From NCBI GenBank assembly GCA_041082235.1, contig JBDOIG010000091.1, positions 1 to 52,736 of the forward strand: a stretch of 52,736 nt of DNA, read 5' to 3'. The position numbers were made by a program, and so were the translations under genes. Of this stretch, positions 10,060-52,736 are shown piece by piece. The notes beneath the pieces are model-generated. The model saw nothing but the letters and a program-made list of their open reading frames with translations, was not told where the DNA came from and ran no database searches. Source of the DNA: Thermodesulfovibrionales bacterium (GTDB lineage Bacteria > Nitrospirota > Thermodesulfovibrionia > Thermodesulfovibrionales > CALJEL01). The first letter of the stretch is position 1. Each line of letters opens with the position of its first letter.

Positions 10060-10094
10060 GAAGCATCCTTTTGGCGGTTTTGAGGTAAAACTGT

Positions 10095-39652: not shown

Positions 39653-40749
39653 CAAAAACTATTCTTCATATTTTTTCTGGTGATTTATGGGCAGGTGCTG
39701 AGGTCATGATTTATAATCTTTTAAGGTGTCTTAAAAATTACCCTGGTCTCAGCATAATCGCACTTTCTATGAATGAGGGTGAGCTTACTGAAAGATTAAG
39801 AAAGGAGAATGTAGAGCTGTACATAATAGACGAACAGCAACATTCTTTTCTTACTATTTTATTAAAGACTAAAAGTCTTTTTAAATACAGGGAAATTGAT
39901 ATCATCCATTCTCACAGATACAAGGAGAATCTGCTGGCTTTATTAGCTGGGCGAATGCTTGGCATATCAAAACTGGTCACCACAGTACATGGTCTCCAAG
40001 AGGTTGCTTATAATACTGGATCAGAAAATAGCATTTCATGGAAAGCGAATGTTGATTACTATATATTAAAGAAAAAATTTACAGTTGTAGCTGTTTCTGA
40101 AGCTATGAAAAAAGTTTTTGTAAAGCAGTTAGGTTTTATGCATGACATGGTAAAGGTAATCCATAACGGAATTGATGTATCAAACTTTTTTACAGCAAAA
40201 AAATTTTTTTCAGATGATTCCATCCTTCATATTGGCACTGTAGGAAGGCTTGTTCCTGTAAAAGGGTTTGATTTGTTTCTTGCGATTGCGTGTGAGGTCA
40301 GGAATAAGGTAGAGGGGATTAAATTCAGTATTCTTGGAGATGGGCCGATGAGAGATTTTCTTAAGAATAGAGCTGAGGAATTAGGGCTGAATGGATTCGT
40401 AGAATTCAAGGGACATCTCAACAACCCCCAGTCATATTACCAGGGTCTTGATATTTTTATTAATACCTCATTTCATGAGGGTATTCCTATGAGTGTACTT
40501 GAGGCAATGGCATGCGGAGTACCTGTAATTGCACCAAAAGTGGGAGGGATTCCTGAGATTATAAGAAACGGAATAGATGGATTTCTTGTGAAAAGAGAAA
40601 AAGATAGCTTTGTGAAAGCGTGTATGAATCTTATTTCAAATAGAGAACTGCTTTTTCAAATGTCAGAGAACTGTAAACAGAGGATTAAGGATTACTTCAG
40701 CGCTGAAAGAATGGCTGAGCAATATAGACAACTTTATAACAGTATTTAG
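39649..40749 (+). CDS. Glycosyltransferase family 4
   Basis: AGAE, IHNGID, VGRLVPVKG and EGIPMSVLEAMACG motifs. Confidence 0.93.
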   Translation: MTKTILHIFSGDLWAGAEVMIYNLLRCLKNYPGLSIIALSMNEGELTERLRKENVELYIIDEQQHSFLTILLKTKSLFKYREIDIIHSHRYKENLLALLAGRMLGISKLVTTVHGLQEVAYNTGSENSISWKANVDYYILKKKFTVVAVSEAMKKVFVKQLGFMHDMVKVIHNGIDVSNFFTAKKFFSDDSILHIGTVGRLVPVKGFDLFLAIACEVRNKVEGIKFSILGDGPMRDFLKNRAEELGLNGFVEFKGHLNNPQSYYQGLDIFINTSFHEGIPMSVLEAMACGVPVIAPKVGGIPEIIRNGIDGFLVKREKDSFVKACMNLISNRELLFQMSENCKQRIKDYFSAERMAEQYRQLYNSI

Positions 40750-40751
40750 CA

Positions 40752-41912
40752 ATGGAAAAGGTTCTTGTCCTTGACGGTAATGAAAGGCCGGCCCTTGCAA
40801 TAACACGTTCTATTGGTAAAAGAGGGATTCAAGTTGTTGTAGGTGCTGAGAAAGCGGAATCCTTAGCTGGAGTATCAAGGTATTGCAGTGAAAGACTTTT
40901 GTATCCGTCACCGATGCATAACTCTAATGAGTTTCTAAATACTATCACTCAGGAAATTAAAAAAAGAGCAATAACTATCATCTATCCTGTTACAGAGATT
41001 ATGACCTATCTAATTCTTAAATATAGAGACAGATTTGAGGGGATTAAAATACCATTTGCAAGCTTTGATAAATTTGAAATTCTCACAAATAAGATAAGAC
41101 TGATGAAACTTGCAGAGAAACTAAATGTTCCAATCCCTGAAACTCGCTATATCTCTAATATAGAAGATATTTATGTGCTGAAGGATAAACTCAAATATCC
41201 AGTAGTTATCAAGCCCTGCAGGTCACGCATCCTTACAGAGAGGGGCTGGATAACTGCCTCTGTTAAATATGCCTATACGGAGGATGAACTTATTAAAACA
41301 GTTAAAAATACCTCTTATTTTAAGAGTCATCCCTTTTTAATCCAGCAGTTTATTAAAGGAGAGGGGAGGGGGGTATTTGCTCTTTATAATCATGGCCAGC
41401 CTATAATATTTTTTGCCCACAGGAGGTTGAGGGAAAAACCTCCTTCAGGAGGTGTAAGTGTCTTATGTGAAAGTGTTCCAGTAGACCCGGTTCTGAGAGA
41501 ATATGCAGAGAGGATATTGAACCACGTTCAATGGCATGGGGTGGCAATGGTAGAATTTAAGATTTCTGAAGAGGGTTTACCGTACTTGATTGAAGTTAAT
41601 GCCAGGTTCTGGGGCTCTTTACAGCTTGCTATTGATGCAGGTGTTGATTTTCCTTGGCTTTTATATCAGATTGAAACGGGAATATGTCTTGATAGAGTCA
41701 ATAACTACAGAAAAGGCATAAAATTGCGTTGGCTTTTAGGGGATCTTGACAATCTTTATCTTACATTTAAAAGCCGTACTAATATCGTAGCCAAGATTTT
41801 TTCTTTAATTCGATTTCTTAATTTATTTGCACGCAATACTCATTACGAAATAAATAGATTATACGACTTTAAACCATTTTTATTTGAATTAAAACAATAC
41901 GTTAAACATTAA
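40752..41912 (+). CDS. ATP-grasp ligase
   Basis: RSIG, VPIPET, PVVIKP, HRRLREKPPSGGVS, MVEFK and EVNARFWGS motifs. Confidence 0.88.
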   Translation: MEKVLVLDGNERPALAITRSIGKRGIQVVVGAEKAESLAGVSRYCSERLLYPSPMHNSNEFLNTITQEIKKRAITIIYPVTEIMTYLILKYRDRFEGIKIPFASFDKFEILTNKIRLMKLAEKLNVPIPETRYISNIEDIYVLKDKLKYPVVIKPCRSRILTERGWITASVKYAYTEDELIKTVKNTSYFKSHPFLIQQFIKGEGRGVFALYNHGQPIIFFAHRRLREKPPSGGVSVLCESVPVDPVLREYAERILNHVQWHGVAMVEFKISEEGLPYLIEVNARFWGSLQLAIDAGVDFPWLLYQIETGICLDRVNNYRKGIKLRWLLGDLDNLYLTFKSRTNIVAKIFSLIRFLNLFARNTHYEINRLYDFKPFLFELKQYVKH

Positions 41913-41920
41913 ATATTTAA

Positions 41921-42649
41921 ATGTATTTTAAAGGTATTATTCACGTTCATTCAAATTATTCCTATGATGGTTATCATACCATCAGTGAGATAGCAGAGTG
42001 GGGTAAAAAAAGAGGATATAGTTTTATCTGTATGAGTGAGCATTCTGAGACTTTTGATGAAAAAAAGATGTTGAATTACGTTGAAGAATGTAAAAATGTT
42101 TCAACATCAGGGTTGTTAATAATACCGGGAATAGAATTTAGCTGTAATAATGGTTTGCATATTTTAGGATTGGGAATTAAAGAGTTCATTCATTCATCGG
42201 AACCAGTTGAAATAGTGCAATTTATTAAAGAACAGAATGGATTAATAATTATTGCTCATCCAAGTCGTTATAATTATCAGATACCTTTAAATCTTATTGG
42301 ATATGTAAATGGAATTGAAATCTGGAATGCAGCATATGATGGACGATTTATTCCAAATCCTGATTCAATTGCTCTTTTTAGAAAAATAGATAGACGTTAT
42401 GCTTTTTTTGCATATGGCGGTCTTGATTTTCACAAAATTTCTGATAATTTTAATATTGAAATAATAGTTTTTTGTAATGAAATAAAAAATATTTTATTAG
42501 CACTGCAGAATGGAAATTTTGTGATGTCTAATTCTTATTTTACGATTGATTCATTGTGTAGATTGAGTCAGATAAAATATGCTCAAATATTTATAATGCG
42601 AAAGCTTTATCTTTTTATGAAGGCAGTGCGCGATTATATATTGGAATAA
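41921..42649 (+). CDS. PHP-domain phosphoesterase
   Basis: HVHSNYSYDG, SEH, GIEF, AHP and GGLDFH motifs. Confidence 0.82.
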   Translation: MYFKGIIHVHSNYSYDGYHTISEIAEWGKKRGYSFICMSEHSETFDEKKMLNYVEECKNVSTSGLLIIPGIEFSCNNGLHILGLGIKEFIHSSEPVEIVQFIKEQNGLIIIAHPSRYNYQIPLNLIGYVNGIEIWNAAYDGRFIPNPDSIALFRKIDRRYAFFAYGGLDFHKISDNFNIEIIVFCNEIKNILLALQNGNFVMSNSYFTIDSLCRLSQIKYAQIFIMRKLYLFMKAVRDYILE

Positions 42650-42678
42650 ATTTTAATTGAAGCAAAATAAACAATATC

Positions 42679-44163
42679 ATGAGAGAAGATATTTTAAAAA
42701 TTACCCGTCATACACTAATTTATAGTGCTGGAACAATAATTAATAGAGCTATAGGATTTATTATGTTACCCGTTTATACGCGATATTTGTCTCCTGCTGA
42801 TTATGGCACTATTGAATTATTAACGATGACCTTGGATATCATTTCTCTTATAATGGGGATGGGAGTTTCTGCAACTGTTTTTAAATATTATTTTGAATAT
42901 GAAAGCTCAATAGAAAAAAAAGAAGTCATAAGTACATCCATTATATTATTAACCTCGCTGTGGCTTATAACTTCAATAGCGGGCCTTTTTTTTTCAAATA
43001 AACTTTCATTAATAGTATTCAAGCATGAAGAAAATGGTTATTACTTCAAATTACTATTTATAATTCATTTTTTGCAATCTAGTATGGTTACTATACCTTT
43101 TATGTTTATAAGAGCAATGGAGAATTCAAAACTCTTTGTTTATCTTAACTTGATAAAGCTGATCATGCAAGTTTCTTTCAATATACTTTTTGTAGTTAGA
43201 TTAAAGATGGGTATACTTGGAATTCTATATAGCACTTTGTTGACAGATTTTATTTTGGGTTCATATCTTGTTTTTTTTACATTTCGTAGAGTTGGTTTCA
43301 GATTTTCTATATCTAAATGTCAAAAAATGGTTAAATTTGGATACTTTTTTGTTTTTGCTTCATTAAGCAGTTTTATTCTTACCTATTCTGACCGCTATTT
43401 CTTAAATATCTTTAGTGAGCTTAGAACAGTTGGAATTTATGCGCTTGCATATAAATTTGGATTTCTGCTTGGTTATCTAACTGTTGGACCTTTTATGCAA
43501 ATATGGGAACCTTATAGATTTGAGATTGCCAAGAAAGATTACGCTTTGCAATTTTTTAAAAGAATGTTTTTATATTTCAATATTGCTGTTATAACATTTT
43601 CTCTTTTAATTTCCCTTTTTGTAAAGGATGCTTTAGTTATAATGGCTGCACCATCTTATCTTGAGGCTTATAAAATTGTTCCAATAATCATTATAGCTTT
43701 TATATTTCAGGCATGGACATATTACTGTAACATCGGAATTTATATTAAAGAAAAAAGTAAATATATGGCCTTAGCATATATAAGCTCGGCTGTGAGTGTT
43801 ATTATTTTAAATTTTATCTTGATTCCGAAATATGGAGGGTATGGCGCAGCATTTGCTGCAGTTGGAGCATTCTTTATAAGATTTATTTTAACTTTAATAT
43901 TTTCTCAAAAATTTTATCATGTAAATTATGATTGGAATAAACAATTATCATTGCTAATCTCATCAATATTTATTTATCTAATCAGTAGATTTCTGAATAT
44001 ATCAGGTCTCGCAATTTCACTCGGTATTAATACTATCTTAATTTTATTATTTCTAATAATCATTTATTTATTCTTTTTGGATTATTCTGAAAGAAATTTC
44101 ATTAAAAAAACTGTTAGAAATTCAATAGCTTCTATTAAAGCATTAGCTTCGTATCGGCTTTAA
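42679..44163 (+). CDS. wzx: Oligosaccharide flippase
   Basis: LPVYTRYLSPADYG, DRYFL, VGIY and LIPKYGxxGAA motifs; many TM segments. Confidence 0.9.
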   Translation: MREDILKITRHTLIYSAGTIINRAIGFIMLPVYTRYLSPADYGTIELLTMTLDIISLIMGMGVSATVFKYYFEYESSIEKKEVISTSIILLTSLWLITSIAGLFFSNKLSLIVFKHEENGYYFKLLFIIHFLQSSMVTIPFMFIRAMENSKLFVYLNLIKLIMQVSFNILFVVRLKMGILGILYSTLLTDFILGSYLVFFTFRRVGFRFSISKCQKMVKFGYFFVFASLSSFILTYSDRYFLNIFSELRTVGIYALAYKFGFLLGYLTVGPFMQIWEPYRFEIAKKDYALQFFKRMFLYFNIAVITFSLLISLFVKDALVIMAAPSYLEAYKIVPIIIIAFIFQAWTYYCNIGIYIKEKSKYMALAYISSAVSVIILNFILIPKYGGYGAAFAAVGAFFIRFILTLIFSQKFYHVNYDWNKQLSLLISSIFIYLISRFLNISGLAISLGINTILILLFLIIIYLFFLDYSERNFIKKTVRNSIASIKALASYRL

Positions 44164-44165
44164 AT

Positions 44166-45356
44166 ATGAGCCTTTTTTTCACTATTGCTTATCTAATTGC
44201 TGAATATATGCGACCGCAGTCCATGTATGAAGCACTTGCTGGTTTGCCGTTTGCGCTGCTCACAATAATCGGAATTATACTTTCTTTTGTATTAGAAAGA
44301 AGGCAGCTAAACAACTATAATTTTCAAAATGTACTTATAGTTATTTTTTTAATTCAGATATTTATTTCTTATCAGTTTGCTTTTAATCAAGAATTAGCTC
44401 GGCAGCCATTAATAGATTTTGCTAAATTGGTAATTATATATTTTCTATTAATTAATATAGTCAATGAGAGAAAAAAATTGTACTGGTTTGTTGTTGTTTT
44501 GTTACTAATTCATTTTAAATCTGCCCAGCATCTTGTAAGACAGTTAATTGCATTAAATTTTAATATAGGGACTGGGCTATTTGGTGGTGCTGGTCTTTTT
44601 GCAAACCCTGGTGATTTGGGTACAGCTTTGGTGGCATTTTGGGGTATAAGTTATTACATGATAAGAGTAGAACATGTAAGATTGTTCAGATTTTTTAACT
44701 TAAAATGGTTTTTCATTATTACAACGATTACAATGCCGATTGCTATTGTAGCTACAAACACAAGAGGGGCTTCGCTCGGATGTGGAGTTAGCTTATTATA
44801 TATATGGTATAAAAGTAAAAAGAAATTCATTGCAGCTATAATTATAATCACAATGATTCTAATGTTTACAGCATTTATTCCTAACTGGGAAAGGTATAAA
44901 CAGATAGGAACGGAGGAGGATGCGACAGGGCAACAAAGAATTATTCTCTGGGGGGCCTCTATTAAGATGGCAAATGAATATCCACTTGCTGGAGTTGGTC
45001 CAAATAATTTTGTATTTGTTAATAAAAATTATTTTGGTTCTGAGTTACAACTCGTGCAACATAATATTTTTTTCCAGGTTTTATCAGAGCTTGGCTATCC
45101 CGGGCTTGTTTTATTTTTATTAATGATCATAGGCTGTTTCTATAATCAGTGGATGGCTCGGAAAATTTTAAAGGAAAGGAATATCCATGATCCATTTTTA
45201 TACTGGTTATCTCATGGATTAGATGTTAGTTTAATAGGATTTATTATTGCAGCTTTTTTTGTTTCAGTATTCTATTATCCCCTTTTTTGGTCACTTCTTA
45301 TATTAAGTGTTTCATTGATAGACTCGGTAAAAAAGCTTTGCAGAAATAATTCTTAA
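44166..45356 (+). CDS. Wzy/O-antigen ligase family polymerase
   Basis: Multi-TM protein with NPGDLG, TRG, RxxLW, PLAGVG and HNIFFQVLSELG motifs. Confidence 0.85.
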   Translation: MSLFFTIAYLIAEYMRPQSMYEALAGLPFALLTIIGIILSFVLERRQLNNYNFQNVLIVIFLIQIFISYQFAFNQELARQPLIDFAKLVIIYFLLINIVNERKKLYWFVVVLLLIHFKSAQHLVRQLIALNFNIGTGLFGGAGLFANPGDLGTALVAFWGISYYMIRVEHVRLFRFFNLKWFFIITTITMPIAIVATNTRGASLGCGVSLLYIWYKSKKKFIAAIIIITMILMFTAFIPNWERYKQIGTEEDATGQQRIILWGASIKMANEYPLAGVGPNNFVFVNKNYFGSELQLVQHNIFFQVLSELGYPGLVLFLLMIIGCFYNQWMARKILKERNIHDPFLYWLSHGLDVSLIGFIIAAFFVSVFYYPLFWSLLILSVSLIDSVKKLCRNNS

Positions 45357-45364
45357 AAATTACA

Positions 45365-46411
45365 ATGATTAGTGTTATTATACCAACCTATAACTGTAGT
45401 GACTACATAATAGAAGCCATTGAGAGTGTTCTAAATCAGACATATAAGGATGTAGAAATTATTGTTATAGATGATGGGTCTACAGATGATACCTATAAAA
45501 TTTTAAAACCTTACCTGCATAAGATTAAGTATATTTACCAGGATAATAGTGGGCCCTCAAGAGCAAGGAATGTGGGTATTCAAGAGGCAAAAGGAGAATA
45601 TATTGCCTTTCTTGATGCTGACGATAAGTGGAGGACATTTAAAATATATCTTCAACTATCCTTGCTGGAAGCTCTTCCTGATGTTAATATGATTTTTTCA
45701 AATTATGCGGTGATAGACAAAAATGGGACTTTAATTGTAGATTCCTATATAGAAAAAGGTTTTCCTATTTTTTCTGAATATAAAGTAAAAATTAAAGGCA
45801 TTTTTAATAAGGTAATCCCCATAAAAAAGATTTGTAATTTTGATGGTCTTTTATCCGATAGTTATGTATATTACGGTAATATATTTGATAAATTATTTAT
45901 GGGAAATTTTATACTTCCTTCTACTGAAATAATCAGGAGATCAAGTTTGCGACCTCCTTTTTTGTTTAATGAGAAATATAAGTGTGCTGTGGATCAAGAT
46001 TTTCATCTCAGGTTTTCTAAAAACCATAAGATCGCATATATTGATATTTCTACAACTGAATATAGAATAAATAGAAAAGGTCAGCTTTCTGGTAAACAAA
46101 ACACCTCACAATTAATTTTAAATACCATAGAGACAAGGCTTAGAGTGATTAATGAAGATAGTGAATTTTTATCGCAAAAAAGAGGTTTAATTAAAAAGGT
46201 CCTGGCAAAAGACTTTTTGCGGCTTTCATATTATTATTTAAGTGAATTAGATATGAAAAGTTCAAGAAAATATGCTATTTCAAGCTTAAGATATAAGCCC
46301 TTATTAATAAAGTCATGGGTTATCTTTTTGTCTTCTTTTTTTCCGCCCTTTGTATTATCTCTAATTCGCTCGTTTAAATTTTTTATAAAATCTTTATCAT
46401 CTAAAAAATGA
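45365..46411 (+). CDS. Glycosyltransferase family 2
   Basis: SVIIPTYN, DDGSTD, ARNVG and FLDADD motifs. Confidence 0.93.
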   Translation: MISVIIPTYNCSDYIIEAIESVLNQTYKDVEIIVIDDGSTDDTYKILKPYLHKIKYIYQDNSGPSRARNVGIQEAKGEYIAFLDADDKWRTFKIYLQLSLLEALPDVNMIFSNYAVIDKNGTLIVDSYIEKGFPIFSEYKVKIKGIFNKVIPIKKICNFDGLLSDSYVYYGNIFDKLFMGNFILPSTEIIRRSSLRPPFLFNEKYKCAVDQDFHLRFSKNHKIAYIDISTTEYRINRKGQLSGKQNTSQLILNTIETRLRVINEDSEFLSQKRGLIKKVLAKDFLRLSYYYLSELDMKSSRKYAISSLRYKPLLIKSWVIFLSSFFPPFVLSLIRSFKFFIKSLSSKK

Positions 46412-47517
46412 AAAAAGGGGTTATTCTGCAACTTATTGAGTCGTGGGGTCCTGGTGGAGCCGAGACCATTGTTTTAGAATTATGCAAAAAATTATCTGAG
46501 AGGTCTTTTTATCCAGTTGTAGGATTGTTAAAGGATGGTTGGCTAAATCAGGAGCTTTCAAGGCATGGCATAGAGACTGTAATTATTAAAAATAAATATT
46601 CTTGTGACCCTTTTTGTTTATGGCAATTAGTTAAAATTATCAGAATGCGGAAAATAGACATTATTCATTCGCATGAGTTTATGATGAATGTTTATGGAAC
46701 TGTAGCCTCAATTTTAACGAATAAGCCAATAATAAATACTATACATGGGAAAAATTACTACTGGGAGAAATGGCGTAGGATATTGGCTTATCGGTTTATG
46801 GGGCATTTTGCTACTAAAGTAGTTGCGGTTTCTGAGGATTTGAAAAATTTTGTTGCTGACAGGACCGGGATAAACAGGGATAAGATATCTGTTATTTATA
46901 ACGGTATTGACTTGAATAAATACAATATAAAAAATTCATGCGATATATTGAAGATAAAAAAAGAGCTTATGTTAAACAATGTGGTTATTGGTAGTGTTGG
47001 TAACATTTATCCTGTTAAAGGATATCTGTACCTGATTCAGGCCGCCAGTAAGGTTATTAAAAGAATTCCTGATATTACTTTTTTAATAATAGGGAAAAAA
47101 ACACCTTATTTTGATGAATTAAAAAGAATCGTAGATAATTTAGGTATTAATGGTCATATAAATTTTTTAGGGTTTAGAAATGATGTGCAAGATTTGCTGG
47201 CCTTATTTGATTTATATGTTTCTCCTTCCTTATCAGAGGGTTTATCTTTATCTATTTTGCAAGCTATGGCAGCAGGTAAACCTGTAATTGCAACTGATGT
47301 AGGTGGAAATCAAGAAATAATAAGGCATGGTGAAACTGGCATTTTAATATCACCTCAAAACTCTGAGATGTTAGCAGATAGTATTCTTATGTTATTGGAA
47401 AATAAAACCTTGGCAAATAAACTCGGGATGGCTGCCAGAAAAGTAGTCAAGGAGAAATTTTCTATAAATTGCATGATAGATAATTATATTAAACTTTATG
47501 AATCTTGCAAAGTTTAA
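46408..47517 (+). CDS. Glycosyltransferase family 4
   Basis: GGAE, IYNGID, VKG and SEGLSLSILQAMAAGKPVIATDVGG motifs. Confidence 0.93.
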   Translation: MKKGVILQLIESWGPGGAETIVLELCKKLSERSFYPVVGLLKDGWLNQELSRHGIETVIIKNKYSCDPFCLWQLVKIIRMRKIDIIHSHEFMMNVYGTVASILTNKPIINTIHGKNYYWEKWRRILAYRFMGHFATKVVAVSEDLKNFVADRTGINRDKISVIYNGIDLNKYNIKNSCDILKIKKELMLNNVVIGSVGNIYPVKGYLYLIQAASKVIKRIPDITFLIIGKKTPYFDELKRIVDNLGINGHINFLGFRNDVQDLLALFDLYVSPSLSEGLSLSILQAMAAGKPVIATDVGGNQEIIRHGETGILISPQNSEMLADSILMLLENKTLANKLGMAARKVVKEKFSINCMIDNYIKLYESCKV

Positions 47518-48169
47518 AAATAATAAAATTATTAAAAAGATATTTCATATGCGATTACCTTATTTCAAAACTTATGCAGAATTGCTTGTTCTATTCAGAA
47601 CAATCATAAAATTCTTTTTTATGTGGTTAAAAAATGTATTATTTTTTGACCAAATGATCCGCTATCAATGTAATGAGGTAGGGAGAAATATTTTCTTCTG
47701 GGGTACATATCCACTTATACAGAATAAAGGATATATAAAAATAGGGGATAATGTTAGTTTTGTCGGTCGTAACAATATTATAGTGGGTTTTAATATTCCG
47801 GAGATTGAGAGGCCAACTTTAATAATTGGTAATAATGTAAATATTGGCTTTGGTTGCGAAATAAATGTTGGAGAAAAAGTCATTATTGGGGACAATGTAC
47901 TTATAGCTACTGGTGTTAGAATATTTGATAATAATTCTCATCCAACTAATCCTGTTAAAAGGATAAATAGAGAACCTTTGAGTAAAGATGATATAGCCCC
48001 TGTAATAATAGAAGATAATGTATGGATTGGCACCGGAGCTTTAATACTTAAGGGAGTGAGAATTGGAAAAGGTTCTGTAGTAGGTGCTTGTTCAGTTGTA
48101 ACAAAGGATGTCCCTGAAAATGTAATAGTAGTTGGTAATCCAGCGAGAATTGTAAAAGAAATAAAGTAA
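47498..48169 (+). CDS. Left-handed beta-helix O-acyltransferase
   Basis: Hexapeptide repeats; IEDNVWIG...GVRIG...SVVTKDVP...GNPAR. Confidence 0.9.
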   Translation: MNLAKFKNNKIIKKIFHMRLPYFKTYAELLVLFRTIIKFFFMWLKNVLFFDQMIRYQCNEVGRNIFFWGTYPLIQNKGYIKIGDNVSFVGRNNIIVGFNIPEIERPTLIIGNNVNIGFGCEINVGEKVIIGDNVLIATGVRIFDNNSHPTNPVKRINREPLSKDDIAPVIIEDNVWIGTGALILKGVRIGKGSVVGACSVVTKDVPENVIVVGNPARIVKEIK

Positions 48170-48250
48170 AATTTTAATTCACAGATTGGAAATATAAATT
48201 TATTTAAATATTTACCTCATAAGTTCCAATTTGCTATATCATTCGTAAAA

Positions 48251-49108
48251 TTATTTTACTGTAAGATTTTGAGGGGGCGCAGGCGAGCCACAAGCTTTAG
48301 CCCGGTCCCAATTGAGAGGTCCTATCATCGGATTACCCTTACAGTCAACATTAAGGGGCTTATCTGTGGTTACTTCTACATCATCAATAAAAGCATACTG
48401 TGTCTTTGGAACTCCTCCATTCCAGTATGTAAATATATATGTTCCAAACTCTTTATCAACTATATCCGTTATCTCCAGCATCGTCTTATGATCCCTATCT
48501 TCTATTACTAAAATACCATCCTTCCATATTCTCATAACGGGAGATATGTTAGACAATTTTACATAAAGCTCTATACTCTGCCACTTTCCCCTGCTAAAAT
48601 AAACATTGGTAGTCGGTTGATAAGGTGTTATTTCGTTTGAAAGGACAATCCTCCCTTGATCATCGGAAAGTATTGATAAAATCCCTCGGGGGCTGTTGTC
48701 TATTGTAAGAATTCGTGCAGTCCTCAGAATCTTAAAAACTGGATGACTTGTAAAATCAAAATCCGGTGGAAAATAAACATACTCCCTTACCCATATTTCA
48801 TCATCGTGGAACAAAGGCGTGTGATACACGATGGTACCACCACACACCGGCCAGCAATCAGAGTCTTTGGGGAAAATAACCTTTGCAGATTTAGAGCCAC
48901 TATGGGAATTTTCACTTGAATAAAATGTTTGAGATAAGGCATCTGTGAACCCTGATGGTCCCTGAGCCTCTTGCCCGATAGTACCGAGCTCAAAATCAGC
49001 AGTTATTGTCCATGCATGTGCACGGATAGAAAAAATAGAAAACGATAGAATGATGAGGAAGACTTTAAAAATTGATACAATGAAGTTATTTTTTCTGTAT
49101 TTTTTCAT
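48251..49108 (-). CDS. Secreted jelly-roll (polysaccharide lyase/LamG-like) protein
   Basis: Signal peptide ending AHA-W, DFE, WVRxYVYFPxDFDF, K..R, GKWQSIExYVK, RIWKDG and YxxIDD pattern. AGGAGGAG RBS. Confidence 0.65.
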   Translation of the reverse strand: MKKYRKNNFIVSIFKVFLIILSFSIFSIRAHAWTITADFELGTIGQEAQGPSGFTDALSQTFYSSENSHSGSKSAKVIFPKDSDCWPVCGGTIVYHTPLFHDDEIWVREYVYFPPDFDFTSHPVFKILRTARILTIDNSPRGILSILSDDQGRIVLSNEITPYQPTTNVYFSRGKWQSIELYVKLSNISPVMRIWKDGILVIEDRDHKTMLEITDIVDKEFGTYIFTYWNGGVPKTQYAFIDDVEVTTDKPLNVDCKGNPMIGPLNWDRAKACGSPAPPQNLTVK

Positions 49109-49140
49109 GAGACACTCCTCCTTTCAACTAACTATTATAT

Positions 49141-49563
49141 TCAAGGTATCATTTTATATCCAGTATTTGAATAATCACTTTCATTACCATCTGCATCATA
49201 GGCAGTTACAGCGAAGTAATAAGTTCCACTTGTAAGATTTCTGATGGTATAAGAACATGTTTGTGGCTGTGCTGTACCAGGGCATGATGATGAACACGGA
49301 GTGCATCCTACATCTATTACTGTAGGGGATTTCCCATTAATCCAATAATAAATCTTATATCCTGCTAAATCATTAAGAGATGTCCCATCAGCATTTATTG
49401 TAGGAGAATCCCAGGTTAAAGTTGCAAAGTTGTTTGAGCCGCTGTTATTATCACTCATTTGAGTAGTTGCTCCACAACTAAAAAGCAATAGTGTCAATAA
49501 TGTAACAATGATATTAGGAGCCACTTTAATATAGCCCTTATATAAAGGTTTCAGTATTAACAT
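49141..49563 (-). CDS. Fibronectin type III domain lipoprotein
   Basis: ATG 49563 with GAGGAGG RBS, LFSC lipobox, TLTWDSP...LAGYKIYY...NLTSGTYYFAVTAYD..GNES.YSN. Confidence 0.82.
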   Translation of the reverse strand: MLILKPLYKGYIKVAPNIIVTLLTLLLFSCGATTQMSDNNSGSNNFATLTWDSPTINADGTSLNDLAGYKIYYWINGKSPTVIDVGCTPCSSSCPGTAQPQTCSYTIRNLTSGTYYFAVTAYDADGNESDYSNTGYKMIP

Positions 49564-49584
49564 TTTGGACCTCCTCAATAGCTT

Positions 49585-49619
49585 AAAAATAAAAGCCGCC
49601 AGAGTCAACTCTGGCGGCT
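49585..49619 (-). terminator. Intrinsic terminator, expression platform of the riboswitch
   Basis: Minus strand AGCCGCCAGAG-UUGA-CUCUGGCGGCU-UUUAUUUUU; its 5' arm overlaps the aptamer 3' strand. Confidence 0.85.
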
Positions 49620-49698
49620 CGGCGGACATGGGAGAAATTCTCCTTTAGTCCCGTTGCTCTGCGTCCCATGGTTTCCCATGGTTTGCTCTGAGCAGAGT
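49608..49698 (-). ncRNA. GEMM-I (c-di-GMP-I class) riboswitch, A20 variant
   Basis: Minus strand ACUCUG-CUCAG-A-GCAAACCAUGG-GAAA-CCAUGGGACGCAGAGC...GGACUAAAGGAGAAUUUCUCCCAUGUCC...GCCGC-CAGAGU shows P1, P2 with GAAA tetraloop, P3 with receptor, A47 and C92 equivalents. Confidence 0.92.
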
Positions 49699-49753
49699 GC
49701 AAAAACTTAAACCTAACAAAGGAAGCTCTTTCAAAGAGCCTTTTTACAATACC

Positions 49754-49796
49754 ATAATAGAAAATTTTTAATCAAATTTCTGTGATTTGAATCACA
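49754..49796 (-). promoter_or_regulatory. CRP-family box and -10 element for the riboswitch-led transcript
   Basis: TGTGA-TTTGAA-TCACA at 49781-49796; minus-strand TATTAT at 49759-49754. Confidence 0.7.
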
Positions 49797-50016
49797 AAAG
49801 GTTGTTTCAAATTCTGTAAATTCAAAAAGGGTCTAATTCTCAATAGATTTTATAGACATCAAATAAGAACGGAGAATTATACCAGTGCATAGAGCTATTT
49901 ATAAGACAGTGAGGATAGAGGTACCCAAAGCGGTGAAGATATAGAGGTGTGTTTAACATATTATAATTACCCTTACCTGCTTTCGAGGATAAGAACAACT
50001 TATAGAGAGGTGACAG

Positions 50017-50748
50017 ATGGTTTCTTTTAAAAGATGGTTAAAGGCACAGAAATATGAGCAATCATATTGGGAAAAAGCTGCAAACCGCATCGCCTCAGGG
50101 ATTTCAGGGCAGTTGAGTTGGTACGGATGGAGAGCGGAAGTACTTGAGAAGCGATTAGTCCAGTACATGCATAATGAGATGAAGAAATTTTCCAAGGTTC
50201 TTGAGATTGGTAGCGGTCCTATTGGAATTGTGAGTTTTCTCAAATGGGGCGATAGATATGCAATTGATCCACTAGAAAAGTTTTATGTCAAAAATCCCAT
50301 TTTAACAAAATTGCGGAATCCTGAGGTTAGATATATGAATGGCACAGGTGAATCTATTCCGTTTAATGATGCTTTTTTTTCATTAGTGATTATAGATAAT
50401 GTTATTGATCATACTAAAGATCCTTTTATAGTTATGAAAGAAATCTATCGTATACTCAAAACTAAAGGTATATTATATATTTCTGTTAATGTTCATACTC
50501 TCTGGGGTGCAAAACTTCATCGCATCCTTTCTACTCTTTCTATAGATAAAGGTCATCCTCATACATTCACTATAAACAGAATTCGTCATCTTATAAAAAC
50601 AAGTGGTTTGAGAATTGAAGAAGAAACAATCGAAAATTATCACGAGGTTAAAAGAAAGGATATTCAGTCAAAGAGTTTGAAGAGTAAGATAAAAGGATAT
50701 ACAGGATTGTCTGAATTTTTATATCAGGCAATCTGTAGGAAGGATTAA
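50017..50748 (+). CDS. Class I SAM-dependent methyltransferase
   Basis: VLEIGSGP, AIDPL, GESIPF, NVIDH and RILKTKG motifs. GAGAGG RBS. Confidence 0.88.
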   Translation: MVSFKRWLKAQKYEQSYWEKAANRIASGISGQLSWYGWRAEVLEKRLVQYMHNEMKKFSKVLEIGSGPIGIVSFLKWGDRYAIDPLEKFYVKNPILTKLRNPEVRYMNGTGESIPFNDAFFSLVIIDNVIDHTKDPFIVMKEIYRILKTKGILYISVNVHTLWGAKLHRILSTLSIDKGHPHTFTINRIRHLIKTSGLRIEEETIENYHEVKRKDIQSKSLKSKIKGYTGLSEFLYQAICRKD

Positions 50749-50836
50749 GTATTTACAACAAGAAATGTAGTGGCCATCTGACATGTAACGATAAGAAATA
50801 ATCTGATATTCAAAGAAAGTTATAGGGAGGAGAAAC

Positions 50837-52144
50837 ATGAGTCTAATTGAAAAGATCAAATCAAAAAAAGCAAACGTGGGTATTATAGGACTTGGTTATG
50901 TAGGTCTTCCTCTTGCAATTGAATTTTGTAAGGCAGGATTTTCAGTGAAAGGTTTTGATGTGGATGAAGAAAAAGTTGAGCTCCTCAGGAATGGTAAAAG
51001 TTATATAAAACATATAAACTCCTATAAGCTCGTGGAATGTGGGGACCTTTTTGTACCAACTTCTGATTTTTCAGGACTTCGTGAGATGGATTGTATCTTA
51101 ATTTGTGTACCAACTCCTCTTAACAGTCACAGAGAACCTGACCTTACCTATGTAGTTAATACTGCTAAAATAGTATCAAGATACCTCAGAAAAAACCAGC
51201 TTGTTGTGCTTGAATCCACTACGTATCCTGGTACTACAGAGGAAGTGATGAAGGCAATACTGGAGGAATCGGGGCTGAAGGCGGGTGATGAGTTCTTTCT
51301 TGCCTATTCACCTGAAAGAGAGGATCCAAACAATACTGATTTTACAACGCGCACCATACCCAAGGTGGTTGGAGGATATTCAAAAAAATGTCTTGAGGTA
51401 GCAAAAACACTCTATGAAATGGTGGTGATGAAGGTAGTCCCTGTATCCTCCCCTCGAGTAGCTGAAGCATCAAAACTCCTTGAGAACATTTATAGAGCTG
51501 TCAATATTGCATTGGTTAATGAACTGAAGATGCTTTTTGATAGAATAGGAATAGACATATGGGAGGTAATAGAGGCTGCAAAGACAAAGCCTTTTGGATT
51601 TCAAGCATTTTATCCTGGCCCGGGACTCGGAGGTCACTGTATTCCTATAGATCCATTTTATCTAACCTGGAAAGCAAGGGAGTATGGATTTAATACCAAG
51701 TTTATTGAATTAGCAGGTGAGATTAACACACACATGCCTTACTATGTTGTAGAAAAAGTGGTTCAGGTGCTGAATAATTTTAAGGTTCCTGTAAATGGTG
51801 CAACAATACTTATTCTTGGGGTTGCATATAAAAGAGATATAGATGACCAAAGGGAATCTCCGGCCTTGAAGATCATTCAGCTGCTAAAGGAAAAAGGTGC
51901 AGCGGTAAAGTATAATGATCCCTATGTACCTGTCTGTCGTGGTCATCGTCATTATCCTGATATAAATATGAAGTCTGTTGAGTTATCAGAAGAAATCTTA
52001 AGAATAACAGACTTGGTCTTACTTGTTACCGATCATTCTGTGTATGACTATACTTTTATCGAAAAATATGCAAATTGTATAATTGATACTCGAAATGCCT
52101 TTGCACGGCACGGGATTAACAGTAAAAAGATTTTCAAGGCATGA
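50837..52144 (+). CDS. Nucleotide-sugar dehydrogenase (UDP-GlcNAc/ManNAc 6-dehydrogenase, WbpA-like)
   Basis: GLGYVGLP, ICVPTP, LESTTYPGTT, SPEREDP, GPGLGGHCIP and DQRESP motifs. Confidence 0.95.
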   Translation: MSLIEKIKSKKANVGIIGLGYVGLPLAIEFCKAGFSVKGFDVDEEKVELLRNGKSYIKHINSYKLVECGDLFVPTSDFSGLREMDCILICVPTPLNSHREPDLTYVVNTAKIVSRYLRKNQLVVLESTTYPGTTEEVMKAILEESGLKAGDEFFLAYSPEREDPNNTDFTTRTIPKVVGGYSKKCLEVAKTLYEMVVMKVVPVSSPRVAEASKLLENIYRAVNIALVNELKMLFDRIGIDIWEVIEAAKTKPFGFQAFYPGPGLGGHCIPIDPFYLTWKAREYGFNTKFIELAGEINTHMPYYVVEKVVQVLNNFKVPVNGATILILGVAYKRDIDDQRESPALKIIQLLKEKGAAVKYNDPYVPVCRGHRHYPDINMKSVELSEEILRITDLVLLVTDHSVYDYTFIEKYANCIIDTRNAFARHGINSKKIFKA

Positions 52145-52154
52145 CAGGAAAAAA

Positions 52155-52736
52155 ATGAATAAAGAATCTCCTTATGTATCAGTTATTATACCAGCATATA
52201 ATGAATCACGATTTATTGGCCTCTGTCTCGAATCCATAAAGAACCAGACTTATAATAAAGAAAGAATTGAGATTATTGTTGTTGATAATGGTTCTATAGA
52301 TAATACTGTAGAGATAGCAAGAAGATACACTGATAAGGTATTCATTGTTCCTAATGTCACGGTTGCAGCTTTAAGGAATTTGGGTGCAAGGAAGGCCTCG
52401 GGTGAGATACTTGCCTTTATTGATGCCGACTGTGTCGCAGAGCCTGAGTGGCTTGAAAGGTCAGTATATAGATTAAATGAAAGGAGATGTGTAACAGGTT
52501 CACAGATAGCTTTAAAAGATAACCTGTCATGGATTGAAAGGGCATGGTTTTCTCAGAGACTCAATGGTGTCAGAAAGGTAAATTATATTAATTCAGGCAA
52601 TCTGATAGTTCCTTATGATATTTTTATGAAAATAGGTGGTTTTAATGAAAGCCTTCATACAGGAGAGGACTATGAATTCTGTATGAGGGCCCAGAGATAT
52701 GTTGATATAATAAGTGATGATAGTATCAGGGTAGTT
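52155..52736 (+). CDS. Glycosyltransferase family 2 (runs off window end)
   Basis: MNKESPYVSVIIPAYNES...VVDNGS.D...RNLG...FIDADC...GGFNE...GED; not in the ORF track because it has no stop in the window. Confidence 0.9.
   Translation, partial: MNKESPYVSVIIPAYNESRFIGLCLESIKNQTYNKERIEIIVVDNGSIDNTVEIARRYTDKVFIVPNVTVAALRNLGARKASGEILAFIDADCVAEPEWLERSVYRLNERRCVTGSQIALKDNLSWIERAWFSQRLNGVRKVNYINSGNLIVPYDIFMKIGGFNESLHTGEDYEFCMRAQRYVDIISDDSIRVV

What the first reader, a model, noticed from the sequence alone, without database searches (positions are those of the whole stretch)
49585..49698. GEMM-I riboswitch with A20: candidate 3',3'-cGAMP-sensing ON switch
Seen: aligned to the Vc2 aptamer (P1-G, 5-nt J1/2 CUCAG, position 20, GCAAACC), position 20 is A (plus-strand T at 49687), with A47 and C92 equivalents retained. 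The aptamer 3' strand is also the 5' arm of the terminator, so ligand binding should permit read-through. Known: G20 reads c-di-GMP, while A20 marks the Geobacter GEMM-Ib c-AMP-GMP riboswitches, although some A20 RNAs remain promiscuous. Inference: cGAMP signalling may control an EPS-embedded surface module in this lineage, implying a Hypr-type GGDEF synthase elsewhere in the genome.
Basis: partly seen in the sequence, partly recalled or inferred. Interest (0 to 1): 0.85.

Follow-up and report, generated by a model that had tools for sequence, protein, structure and literature searches.

The report
A20 GEMM-I riboswitch, likely cGAMP-responsive
This is a real cyclic-dinucleotide riboswitch carrying the adenine that lets such RNAs bind cGAMP, in a hot-spring Nitrospirota genome that also encodes two candidate cGAMP-making enzymes, but whether it prefers cGAMP to c-di-GMP cannot be told from sequence.

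Summary
Rfam places a c-di-GMP-I (GEMM-I) aptamer at 49697..49610 (minus strand; 65.8 bits, cut-off 35). The base at Vc2 position 20 is A (plus-strand T at 49687), and the A47 and C92 equivalents are kept. A 12-bp terminator (49620..49593) shares its 5' arm with the P1 3' strand, so this is an ON switch. The A stands in contigs of two studies.

The genome, a Thermodesulfovibrionales MAG, encodes a GacA-like GAF-GGDEF with Ser, GGDEY and a non-Arg cross-dimer residue, plus a GSU1937-like HAMP-GGDDF with Ser.

The RNA belongs to a widespread subfamily (CUCAG-A20-GCAAACC...GACGCAGAG). In it, position 20 is A in 78 of 80 metagenome loci and in 48 of 48 matches in Nitrospirota genomes. All 37 carrier genomes have a match to one of the two Ser-type enzymes.

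cGAMP selectivity is not shown. The pocket matches the bispecific Vc2 G20A type (G21-C46), not the Geobacter GEMM-Ib type. I found no RxxQ/N HD-GYP. It is a new member of a known kind.

The parts
49781..49796 (.). CRP/FNR-type palindrome TGTGA-N6-TCACA upstream of the promoter
   Evidence: Only match in the window (expected 0.06; 6 of 100 shuffles reach one). The same 16-mer, or a version with one mismatch, lies upstream of both sister riboswitches in G019. Genome-wide there are 4 sites against about 3 expected, so the support is conservation, not enrichment. No binding protein was tested.
49754..49759 (-). Candidate -10 hexamer TATTAT. It would put the transcription start near 49747 and the palindrome centre near -41.5 (class II geometry).
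   Evidence: My reading of the sequence. The promoter scan did not list it because there is no -35 hexamer. Inferred, not shown.
49723..49741 (-). Small leader hairpin before the aptamer
   Evidence: Listed as a weak terminator-like hairpin (8 pairs, 3 G-C) and formed in the MFE fold. Not conserved in G019. Role unknown.
49610..49697 (-). GEMM-I (c-di-GMP-I) aptamer
   Evidence: Rfam RF01051, 65.8 bits against a cut-off of 35, full model.
49693..49698 (-). P1 5' strand ACUCUG
   Evidence: Pairs with CAGAGU at 49613..49608. P1 covaries in the subfamily: 57 of 73 sequences have 5 of 5 pairs in register, with at least 7 different pair sets.
49687..49687 (-). A at Vc2 position 20, the base that reads the alpha nucleobase of the ligand
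   Evidence: A in 78 of 80 metagenome loci and in 48 of 48 genome matches of the subfamily.
49659..49660 (-). A47 equivalent (49660), followed by G at position 48 (49659; consensus A)
   Evidence: In the order-level survey, all 4 hits with GCAGAG have A20.
49614..49614 (-). C92 equivalent, which pairs with the guanine of the ligand in Vc2
   Evidence: column 84. The role is taken from PMC6140456.
49583..49620 (-). Intrinsic terminator (stem 49620..49593, U-rich tail 49592..49583)
   Evidence: The hairpin alone folds at -23.5 kcal/mol. The full leader folds at -54.6 with the terminator and at -32.4 with P1 enforced.
49141..49563 (-). First regulated gene: 140-aa lipoprotein with one fn3 domain (RBS GAGGAGG at 49576..49570)
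   Evidence: Pfam fn3, 26.6 bits against a cut-off of 25. 47% identical over 89 aligned columns (residues 47-133) to the N-terminal fn3 of the protein behind sister riboswitch #1 of G019.
48251..49108 (-). Second regulated gene: 285-aa secreted polysaccharide-lyase-like protein
   Evidence: Pfam PF14099, E 1.5e-5 and 25.4 bits, below the cut-off of 29.9, covering profile positions 17-209 of 210. The nearest ESM Atlas clusters carry PL14, heparin lyase I or Cip1-like families, scores 0.94-0.97. No PDB sequence match.

Best explanation
A transcriptional ON riboswitch of the GEMM-I fold with adenine at the ligand-reading position 20.

How it works:
- Transcription probably starts near 49747 from a promoter carrying a CRP/FNR-type box. 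This is inferred.
- While the aptamer is being made, a cyclic dinucleotide bound between A20, A47 and C92 holds P1 (ACUCUG/CAGAGU) and the base of P3 together.
- That keeps GAGCCGCCAGAG out of the 12-bp terminator, so the polymerase reads on into the fn3 lipoprotein gene and the polysaccharide-lyase-like gene.
- Without ligand, the far more stable terminator forms and transcription stops at about 49590.

The most likely physiological ligand is 3',3'-cGAMP, made by the genome's two Ser-type (Hypr-like) GGDEF enzymes. c-di-GMP probably binds as well.

What is shown: the aptamer, A20, the terminator overlap, the presence of the enzymes, and the co-occurrence. What is inferred: ligand identity, ligand preference, the enzymes' products, and the promoter.

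My odds:
- It is a working cyclic-dinucleotide ON switch: 0.9.
- cGAMP is a physiological ligand: 0.6 to 0.65.
- It discriminates strongly against c-di-GMP: 0.3.
For: (1) Aptamer, A20, A47 and C92. Terminator overlap and energies: -54.6 kcal/mol with the terminator, -32.4 with P1.

(2) A20 is real. It is unchanged in contigs of two studies.

(3) A20 is under selection.
- With position 20 left free, the pattern CTCAGNGCAAACC-N8-20-GGGACGCAGAG found A in 78 of 80 metagenome loci. The two G loci are identical in sequence.
- It found A in 78 of 79 distinct sequences once the 4 genomic copies are added.
- It found A in 48 of 48 matches in 37 of 401 Nitrospirota genomes.
- In Vc2, G20 gives picomolar c-di-GMP binding and 10 uM cGAMP binding. 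A20 gives 53 and 120 nM (PMC6140456). Keeping A therefore costs c-di-GMP affinity and buys cGAMP binding.

(4) Synthases.
- Of 11 GGDEF domains in the genome, 7 have Asp, 2 have Asn and 2 have Ser at the PleD-D344 position.
- P0001 has GHLVGS, GGDEY, Thr at the GacA Tyr304 position and an RxxD I-site. Its best PDB match is the GacA fusion 6d9m_A.
- According to PMC6456294, Ser/Thr enzymes always have GGDE[F/Y], and enzymes with a non-Arg cross-dimer residue (Tyr, Ser, Ala, Gln) make mostly cGAMP.
- The C206 protein (4HB_MCP-HAMP-GGDDF with Ser) matches the description of GSU1937, whose deletion lowers cGAMP reporter activity in Geobacter (PMC8835794). Its single match in a Geobacteraceae genome also has Ser + GGDDF.

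(5) Co-occurrence.
- All 37 subfamily-carrying genomes of the 401 sampled have a match to one of the two enzymes. 31 have a C206-like match at E<=1e-70. The other 6 have a P0001-like match at E 8.5e-102 to 3.3e-146.
- By my hand count, about 165 of the 401 genomes have either match, so the split is 37 of about 165 against 0 of about 236.

(6) Seven genomes of the order hold both G20 and A20 GEMM-I RNAs (G019 has 9 G and 8 A), as expected if two ligands are told apart.
Against: (1) The pocket backbone is Vc2-like (G21-C22/G45-C46). All 12 A20 riboswitches of a Geobacteraceae genome have C21-U22/G45-G46. The tested A20 RNA on the Vc2 backbone, Vc2 G20A, is bispecific. The natural A20 RNA Cbe 1-2, whose 21/46 pair I did not see, prefers c-di-GMP (30 against 463 nM) (PMC6140456).

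(2) None of the 14 HD-GYP domains examined has the Rxx(Q/N) signature of cGAMP-specific phosphodiesterases. 12 are Rxx(R/K), one is RxxS and one was not parsed. I placed the motif from recall.

(3) In family f25, which holds 25 of the 37 carrier genomes, no GacA-like enzyme was found. In 5 genomes, 25 parsed domains among the 30 top-scoring GGDEF loci gave Asp 22, Asn 2 and Ser 1. The one Ser comes with GGEEF, a combination reported inactive. There the link rests on the GGDDF enzyme alone, and its cGAMP synthase activity was shown only for an engineered fusion (PMC8835794).

(4) The pattern was not found in 50 other genomes, 28 of them chosen as Ser-type (Acidobacteriota, Bdellovibrionota and others). 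The enzyme does not imply the RNA.

(5) The co-occurrence is confounded by kinship. Whole families lack the RNA and both enzymes together. The Ser was read in only part of the matches.

(6) The genome also has 7 Asp-type GGDEFs, so c-di-GMP is made too.

(7) No expression data.
Confidence: 0.6

Rival explanations
1. A bispecific or mainly c-di-GMP-driven switch. The A20 RNA binds c-di-GMP through a protonated adenine about as well as cGAMP. In the cell it follows the c-di-GMP pool made by the seven Asp-type GGDEFs. A20 tunes affinity down from picomolar to nanomolar and does not change the ligand.
For: - Vc2 G20A binds c-di-GMP at 53 nM and cGAMP at 120 nM. Cbe 1-2 binds them at 30 and 463 nM. 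A20 protonation is stable above pH 8.3 (PMC6140456, passages).
- This RNA shares the Vc2 backbone G21-C46 and lacks the Geobacter C21-G46.
- It is the only GEMM-I in a genome with 7 canonical GGDEFs.
- No RxxQ/N HD-GYP.
- The regulated genes (surface lipoprotein, polysaccharide-lyase-like protein in an EPS locus) are typical c-di-GMP targets. This last point is from general knowledge.
Against: - A is kept in 78 of 80 and 48 of 48 subfamily members.
- Seven genomes keep G20 and A20 RNAs side by side.
- Every carrier genome has a Ser-type GGDEF match.
- Affinity tuning alone would not need that enzyme.
Confidence: 0.3
2. A decayed or idle aptamer, or one for a different ligand such as c-di-AMP or a linear dinucleotide. 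The terminator then acts constitutively, or the leader acts through something else, for example the CRP-like box only.
For: - Two non-standard pairs in P3 (A-C and A-A).
- G in place of A at position 48.
- The operon is missing from 5 of 5 same-genus genomes.
- No RNA reads could be laid.
Against: - The score is almost twice the family cut-off.
- The same P3 features and G48 recur in sister copies in G019, where the P2 and P3 stems differ from the window's yet stay paired (my reading of the sequences).
- P1 covaries across the subfamily.
- C92 is kept, and c-di-AMP would need a change there. That is an inference from the Vc2 pairing rules in PMC6140456.
Confidence: 0.06
3. The A at 49687 is an assembly or sequencing error in an ordinary G20 c-di-GMP riboswitch.
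For: None found. The genome is a fragmented MAG of 316 contigs.
Against: - No other letter at 49687 in contigs of X1 (depth 23.1) or of X3, from another study (depth 9.8).
- Sister copies in other genomes and in metagenomes also have A.
Confidence: 0.01

Closest known systems
Vc2 c-di-GMP-I (GEMM-I) riboswitch of Vibrio cholerae, and its G20A mutant
   Same: - Same Rfam family.
- Same J1/2 length and near-identical sequence (CUCAG here; I recall CACAG in Vc2).
- Same G21-C22/G45-C46 pairs.
- GAAA loop on P2, and A47 and C92 kept.
- The G20A mutant carries the same base at position 20.
   Different: - A20 is natural here and conserved in the subfamily.
- Position 48 is G.
- P3 has two mismatches.
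- The expression platform is a terminator, giving an ON switch.
- Ligand binding was not measured here. Vc2 G20A is bispecific (PMC6140456).
Geobacter GEMM-Ib cGAMP riboswitches (Gs1761/pgcA, Gm0970)
   Same: - A at position 20.
- ON switches with terminators upstream of surface and extracellular proteins.
- They co-occur with GacA-type and GSU1937-type Ser GGDEFs (PMC6456294, PMC8835794).
   Different: - The Geobacteraceae set read here has C21-U22/G45-G46 and J1/2 CGAYAAUA (12 of 12 A20 copies). This RNA has G21-C22/G45-C46 and CUCAG.
- Host phylum is Nitrospirota, not Desulfobacterota.
- One copy per genome here, against 12 A20 copies (of 17 GEMM-I hits) in the Geomonas genome and 13 GEMM-Ib reported for G. 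sulfurreducens (PMC8835794).
- Selectivity is untested.
GacA (GSU1658 / Gmet_1914) Hypr GGDEF, PDB 6d9m / 5VS9
   Same: - P0001 aligns over the whole GGDEF domain.
- It has GHLVGS, GGDE[F/Y] and an RxxD I-site.
- 162 bits, against 115 for the best canonical cyclase.
   Different: - Thr, not Tyr, at the cross-dimer position.
- GGDEY, not GGDEF.
- The N-terminus is a degenerate receiver-like region plus a GAF domain.
- Products are untested.
GSU1937, the second Geobacter cGAMP-linked GGDEF (GGDDF motif, HAMP)
   Same: The C206 protein has a 4HB_MCP-HAMP-GGDEF-like architecture, Ser at the specificity position, GGDDF and no EAL or HD-GYP domain. A full-length match in a Geobacteraceae genome has the same motifs (36% identity, E 1.7e-75).
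   Different: Orthology to GSU1937 itself is inferred from the paper's description. I did not have its sequence. Its activity is known only from a deletion phenotype and an engineered fusion (PMC8835794).

Membership tests
Rfam RF01051 c-di-GMP-I (GEMM-I) riboswitch | Covariance-model score at or above the curated gathering score over the full model | tested here: met
   65.8 bits against 35, model 1-87 of 87, E 9.8e-11.
Rfam RF01051 c-di-GMP-I (GEMM-I) riboswitch | Ligand-contacting A47 and C92 equivalents, and a GNRA loop on P2 | tested here: met
   Column 38 is A, column 84 is C, and the P2 loop is GAAA. The mapping of numbers is mine.
Rfam RF01051 c-di-GMP-I (GEMM-I) riboswitch | P1 helix closing the three-way junction, supported by covariation | tested here: met
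   ACUCUG/CAGAGU here. In the subfamily, 57 of 73 sequences pair 5 of 5 in register, with at least 7 pair sets. The other 16 are register shifts or misparsed tails.
Rfam RF01051 c-di-GMP-I (GEMM-I) riboswitch | Binds a cyclic dinucleotide | not testable with these tools
   Needs in-line probing or ITC.
GEMM-Ib (cGAMP-selective subclass) | A in place of G at position 20 | tested here: met
GEMM-Ib (cGAMP-selective subclass) | Selective binding of 3',3'-cGAMP over c-di-GMP | not testable with these tools
   A20 alone does not ensure it. Vc2 G20A and Cbe 1-2 are bispecific (PMC6140456).
GEMM-Ib (cGAMP-selective subclass) | Sequence backbone of the founding Geobacter members (C21-U22 / G45-G46) | tested here: not met
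   This RNA has G21-C22/G45-C46. 12 of 12 A20 copies in a Geobacteraceae genome have the other form. I could not check whether this is a defining feature, because the 2015 papers are not held. G20 RNAs on the C21 backbone are common in this order (30 of 87), so the backbone is not itself the specificity switch.
GEMM-Ib (cGAMP-selective subclass) | A cGAMP synthase in the same genome | tested here: met
   Two Ser-type GGDEF candidates. Their activity was not tested. CD-NTase/DncV was not searched.
Hypr GGDEF (for P0001, G000:C73:3260-4657) | Ser or Thr at the PleD D344 / GacA S348 position | tested here: met
   GHLVGS aligned to GHLVGS of 6d9m_A. The same in 28 relatives, which with G000 gives 29 of the 30 order-level ortholog loci parsed.
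Hypr GGDEF (for P0001, G000:C73:3260-4657) | GGDE[F/Y], not GGEEF (Goldilocks rule, PMC6456294) | tested here: met
   GGDEY.
Hypr GGDEF (for P0001, G000:C73:3260-4657) | Cross-dimer residue not Arg (Arg skews the product to c-di-GMP) | tested here: met
   FNTRY aligned to FNYRY of 6d9m_A, so Thr stands at Tyr304. Thr itself is not among the residues tested in PMC6456294 (Tyr, Ser, Ala, Gln).
Hypr GGDEF (for P0001, G000:C73:3260-4657) | Makes cGAMP from ATP and GTP | not testable with these tools
   Needs expression with LC-MS or biosensors.
Class II CRP/FNR-dependent promoter | TGTGA-N6-TCACA centred near -41.5, and a Crp-family regulator that binds it | tested here: inconclusive
   The palindrome is present and conserved in 3 of 3 cassettes of G000 and G019. 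It is absent upstream of the G012 and G108 copies, and exact in only 4 of 80 metagenome loci. The transcription start is inferred. G000 has three full-length Crp-family genes. Binding was not tested.

The most novel reading that the evidence does not exclude
The window's RNA is one member of a distinct, environmentally abundant A20 lineage of GEMM-I: CUCAG-A20-GCAAACC, G at position 48, on the Vc2-type G21-C46 backbone. This lineage arose apart from the Geobacter GEMM-Ib RNAs.

Together with GSU1937-type GGDDF and GacA-type Ser-GGDEF enzymes, it would form a cGAMP pathway across Nitrospirota and other soil and sediment bacteria. The pathway would switch on Ig-like and fn3 surface lipoproteins. 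In some Thermodesulfovibrionales it would be wired in series with a Crp-family regulator, with a Crp box upstream of the riboswitch and, in G019, a riboswitch upstream of a crp-family gene. The conserved G48 would be a second determinant that restores cGAMP selectivity on the Vc2 backbone.
Probability: 0.35. Interest if true: 0.65.

Novelty: new member of a known kind. Interest (0 to 1): 0.5.

Why it matters
Riboswitch-mediated Hypr-cGAMP signalling is documented in Geobacter, and the enzymes are called rare (0.17% of GGDEF domains, PMC9140294).

Here a whole order of Nitrospirota keeps a GacA-like Ser-GGDEF: 31 of 40 relatives have the ortholog. A second, GGDDF-type enzyme is common in another Nitrospirota family (55 of 64). 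An A20 riboswitch lineage travels with them.

If the RNA reads cGAMP, this gives a ready-made, sequence-defined reader, writer and regulon for cGAMP outside the former Deltaproteobacteria. The regulon would be surface lipoproteins with Ig-like folds and an EPS-modifying enzyme. It would also give a natural test of what, beyond A20, sets selectivity on the Vc2 backbone.

If the RNA is bispecific, it is an ordinary c-di-GMP-class switch with a tuned affinity.

Tried and rejected
- RNA evidence. No listed holder of the stretch is on record as RNA. Two metatranscriptome runs of the same study as X1 gave 0 reads on 48200-49950 (about 12 in 100 of each run was read). This is no test of expression.

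- Orthologous locus. The riboswitch and its operon were not found by DNA in 5 of 5 same-genus genomes. There was only a 72-base match to the upstream spacer in G004, so A20 could not be followed in close relatives.

- Second context. The flanks of the second context of the 208-nt cassette were not found in G000. G108's copy shares only the aptamer core.

- Co-occurrence outside the phylum. The subfamily pattern occurs in 0 of 50 genomes taken (28 chosen as Ser-type, 22 as Asp-type). The positive control gave 4 of 4. This test was uninformative.

- cGAMP phosphodiesterase signature. Not found (14 of 15 HD_5 matches were parsed, and the weak second match on C6 was dropped).

- CRP-box enrichment. 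Genome-wide there are 4 sites against about 3 expected. The box is exact in only 4 of 80 metagenome loci, so it is not a general feature of the subfamily.

- Internal CAGAG decoy pairing with the P1 5' strand. Rejected as a conserved mechanism, because P1 varies in the subfamily.

- Lyase-like protein. No PDB sequence relative. No structure was predicted.

- Literature.
  - Kellenberger 2015, Nelson 2015, Ren 2015 and Hallberg 2016 are not held. I therefore could not check whether this subfamily was among the A20 RNAs they tested. Their supplements may bear on that.
  - Searches 'Hypr + GGDEF + Nitrospir' (1 paper, irrelevant), 'cGAMP + riboswitch + Thermodesulfovibrio' (0) and 'GEMM-Ib' (7 papers, none whose title or abstract start concerns Nitrospirota) found no prior report.

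- Papers read as passages or named sections only: PMC6456294 (find, sections 12 and 13), PMC8835794 (find, section 7), PMC6140456 (find), 10.1101/600031 (find), PMC5888326 (find), 10.64898/2026.01.30.702909 (find), PMC9140294 (find).

- Not searched: DncV/CD-NTase, EAL, PilZ and GEMM-II in the genome.

- Rows dropped. Three sub-cut-off GEMM-I rows were left out of the 87-hit survey. G013 and G036 orthologs had no locus and were not parsed.

- Hand counts. The counts 107, 165 and 236 are my hand counts from the tables.
Full report
WHAT IS THERE

Rfam's c-di-GMP-I model (RF01051) matches window 49697..49610 on the minus strand over its whole length. The score is 65.8 bits against a gathering score of 35, with E 9.8e-11. 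It is the only Rfam family found in the window and the only GEMM-I found in the 2.54-Mb, 316-contig genome.

The matched row has no gaps, so alignment column i lies at 49698-i. The key positions are:
- Column 11, the unpaired base just before the paired G21-C22 of GCAAACC, is A (plus-strand T at 49687).
- J1/2 reads CUCAG.
- Column 38 (A47) is A.
- Column 39 (position 48) is G, where the consensus has A.
- Column 84 (C92) is C.

P1 is ACUCUG (49698..49693) paired with CAGAGU (49613..49608). A 12-pair hairpin at 49620..49593, followed by UUAUUUUU, is a textbook intrinsic terminator. Its 5' arm, GAGCCGCCAGAG, is made of the last P3 bases, C92 and the P1 3' strand.

The folding energies are as follows:
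- The leader folds at -54.6 kcal/mol with the terminator.
- It folds at -32.4 kcal/mol when P1 is enforced.
- The terminator alone is worth -23.5 kcal/mol.

So without a ligand the terminator wins, and a ligand that holds P1 during transcription gives read-through.

The A is not an error. Contigs of two runs from different studies cover 49687 without any other letter.

WHAT IT CONTROLS AND WHERE IT SITS

Behind the terminator come an RBS and two genes:
- A 140-aa lipoprotein with one fn3 domain (49563..49141).
- A 285-aa secreted protein (49108..48251). It matches the polysaccharide lyase family PF14099 end to end but below threshold. Its nearest ESM Atlas clusters carry PL14, heparin lyase I or Cip1-like families.

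These are the only minus-strand genes inside a Wzx/Wzy polysaccharide locus. That locus holds GT4 and GT2 transferases, a Polysacc_synt flippase, a Wzy_C polymerase or ligase, an acetyltransferase, a methyltransferase and a UDP-sugar dehydrogenase.

Upstream, at 49781-49796, is a perfect TGTGA-N6-TCACA palindrome. It is the only one in the window (expected 0.06). A TATTAT hexamer at 49759..49754 would place the start near 49747 and the palindrome near -41.5. That is my reading and has not been shown.

THE ORGANISM

Same-genus records are titled Thermodesulfovibrionales or Nitrospirae MAGs. The runs that hold the stretch are listed as hot springs metagenomes.

THE PREDICTED SYNTHASE EXISTS, TWICE

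The genome has 11 GGDEF domains. At the position of PleD D344, 7 have Asp, 2 have Asn (both with degenerate GGDEF motifs) and 2 have Ser.

The first Ser enzyme is P0001 (G000:C73:3260-4657, 466 aa):
- Its architecture is a receiver-like N-terminus, a GAF domain and a GGDEF domain.
- It has GHLVGS, GGDEY and an RxxD I-site (RAAD).
- It has FNTRY where GacA has FNYRY.
- Its best PDB match by far is 6d9m_A, the T4-lysozyme fusion of the Geobacter metallireducens GacA GGDEF domain (162.4 bits; next is 3ign_A at 115.1 bits).

PMC6456294 (sections 12 and 13 read) gives three relevant rules. Ser348 is the signature of Hypr enzymes. Natural Ser/Thr enzymes carry GGDE[F/Y] exclusively. Arg at the cross-dimer position skews the product to c-di-GMP, whereas Tyr, Ser, Ala or Gln go with cGAMP. 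P0001 meets all three, although Thr itself was not among the residues tested.

The second Ser enzyme is the C206 protein:
- Its architecture is 4HB_MCP, HAMP and a GGDEF-like domain.
- It has GYARGS and GGDDF.
- This matches the description of GSU1937 in PMC8835794 (section 7 read): a Ser enzyme with HAMP and GGDDF whose deletion lowers cGAMP reporter activity, and whose domain showed some cGAMP synthase activity in one engineered fusion.
- The single match to the C206 protein in a Geobacteraceae genome (36% identity, E 1.7e-75) also has Ser and GGDDF.

The P0001 ortholog is a core gene of the order. It is present in 31 of 40 relatives. The nine without it belong to families f4, f10 and f7. 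Of 30 loci parsed, 29 read Ser + GGDE[F/Y] + FN[TS]RY. The exception, G004, has a split gene and, in its public record, Asn.

THE RNA BELONGS TO A DISTINCT A20 LINEAGE

In 41 genomes of the order, 22 have GEMM-I. I read 87 hits; three sub-cut-off rows were dropped. Position 20 is G in 71 and A in 16, and seven genomes hold both.

Four of the A20 copies share an unusual signature: CUCUG-CUCAG-A-GCAAACC ... GGGACGCAGAGC ... GCCGNGCCGCC-AGAG. These are the window's copy, two in G019 and one in G012.

The G019 and G012 copies control these genes:
- G019 copy #1 precedes a 622-aa fn3/PKD protein. Its first fn3 domain is 47% identical to the window's lipoprotein.
- G019 copy #2 precedes a Crp-family regulator (cNMP_binding + HTH_Crp_2).
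- Both G019 copies have the same palindrome upstream, one of them with a single mismatch.
- The G012 copy precedes a membrane protein of unknown family.

I then scanned JGI metagenome contigs with position 20 left free.
- N is A in 78 and G in 2. The two G loci are identical in sequence.
- P1 covaries: 57 of 73 sequences pair 5 of 5 in register, with at least 7 different pair sets.
- About half are followed by a U-run. GC-rich members instead place an SD right after P1.
- Of 50 first downstream ORFs scanned, the commonest families are Big_2 (9), DUF5666 (8), CarboxypepD_reg (8), fn3 (7) and PKD (3). That is mostly lipoproteins with Ig-like folds.

In a sample of 401 Nitrospirota genomes, the pattern occurs in 37, with 48 matches, and all 48 have A.

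DOES IT TRAVEL WITH THE ENZYMES?

Yes, within this phylum.
- 31 of the 37 carrier genomes have a C206-like match at E<=1e-70 (97 of 401 genomes overall; 55 of 64 in family f25).
- The other six have a P0001-like match at E 8.5e-102 to 3.3e-146.
- By my hand count, about 165 genomes have one or the other, and none of the remaining roughly 236 has the RNA.

Against this:
- In f25, the family with most carriers (25 of 64), there is no GacA-like enzyme. Among 25 parsed domains from the 30 top-scoring GGDEF loci of five genomes, I found Asp 22, Asn 2 and Ser 1. The one Ser comes with GGEEF, a combination reported inactive.
- All five of those genomes do have the GGDDF enzyme with Ser. There the link hangs on the less well characterised enzyme.
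- The pattern was absent from 50 genomes of other phyla, 28 of them chosen as Ser-type (positive control 4 of 4).
- Kin are not independent. Whole families lack everything together.
- I read the Ser in only part of the matches.

WHY SELECTIVITY STAYS OPEN

PMC6140456 (passages read) reports these affinities:
- Wild-type Vc2 binds cGAMP at 10 uM and c-di-GMP in the picomolar range.
- Vc2 G20A binds c-di-GMP at 53 nM and cGAMP at 120 nM.
- The natural A20 RNA Cbe 1-2 binds c-di-GMP at 30 nM and cGAMP at 463 nM.
- c-di-GMP binds A20 RNAs through a stably protonated adenine.
- P1 composition may add to selectivity.

The window's pocket is that of Vc2 G20A apart from G48. The Geobacteraceae A20 riboswitches that I could read (12 of the 17 GEMM-I hits in a Geomonas genome) all have the flipped C21-G46 pair and U22-G45. 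The flipped backbone also occurs with G20 in this order (30 of 87), so it is not itself the switch. However, no tested cGAMP-selective RNA that I could read shares the window's backbone.

No HD-GYP of the genome has the Rxx(Q/N) signature of cGAMP-specific phosphodiesterases described in 10.1101/600031 (I placed the motif from recall). The Vibrio cGAMP phosphodiesterases also lack that signature, according to the same preprint.

VERDICT

The switch, its polarity, its surface and EPS target, and the predicted Ser-type GGDEFs are all there, and A20 is clearly selected in a lineage that co-occurs with those enzymes. That makes cGAMP the most likely physiological ligand (about 0.6).

The RNA is not a Geobacter-type GEMM-Ib. 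It may well be bispecific, and nothing here measures binding.

As a finding it is a new member of a known kind in a phylum where I found no report of this pathway. The key 2015-2016 papers and all supplements were out of reach.

The wider lineage (A20 with G48 on the Vc2 backbone, Ig-like lipoprotein regulon, Crp wiring in some genomes) is the part worth a bench test.

Noticed in passing
window 49591-49798: The 208-nt cassette (Crp-like box, promoter, riboswitch, terminator) is a separate, deeper unitig in run X1 (23.1, against 13.6 and 11.1 on the flanks). In X1 and X3 it joins other flanks on both sides. The alternative downstream flank starts with an RBS and the ATG of a different gene. These flanks are not in G000. 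It is a second copy in an unbinned part or in another strain, so the cassette may be mobile or duplicated.
   Followed up: partly
L237 (G019:C1:50000-61500) 6534-6629 and 10080-10178, minus strand: Two sister riboswitches lie 3.5 kb apart. One precedes an fn3/PKD surface protein and the other a Crp-family regulator. Both have the TGTGA-N6-TCACA box upstream. This suggests a Crp box, riboswitch and crp-gene loop.
   Followed up: partly
It includes GC-rich members that appear to regulate translation, with the SD directly after P1 and an anti-SD in the P1 5' strand. The host phyla of the GC-rich members were not determined.
   Followed up: partly
window 49659 (position 48 of the aptamer): G replaces the consensus A next to the intercalating A47. 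In the order-level survey, all 4 hits with GCAGAG have A20, while the other 12 A20 hits have GCAAAG or GCGGAAAG. Whether G48 affects ligand choice is unknown.
   Followed up: no
window 49693-49697 with 49656-49660: In the minimum-free-energy fold, the P1 5' strand CUCUG pairs with the internal CAGAG of J2/3 instead of the P1 3' strand. That could be a ligand-free decoy, but P1 varies across the subfamily, so it is probably chance.
   Followed up: partly
G034:C1:77466-77550 (L226): This is the one A20 GEMM-I in the order on the Geobacter-like C21 backbone. Its genome has no P0001-like or C206-like match at the thresholds used.
   Followed up: no
G004:C12:418-1814 / L075: In one same-genus genome, the GacA-like gene is split into two frames and reads Asn in place of the signature Ser.
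   Followed up: no
G000 contigs C113 and C115 (L010, L011): Two large proteins (1121 and 994 aa) carry degenerate GGDEF domains (GEDAF and GGDAF, with Asn at the specificity position). The C115 one lies next to an HD-GYP gene.
   Followed up: no
window 39649-52736: A complete Wzx/Wzy-type polysaccharide locus that also holds an ATP-grasp and a PHP-domain protein. The riboswitch operon inside it was not found in 5 of 5 same-genus genomes.
   Followed up: partly
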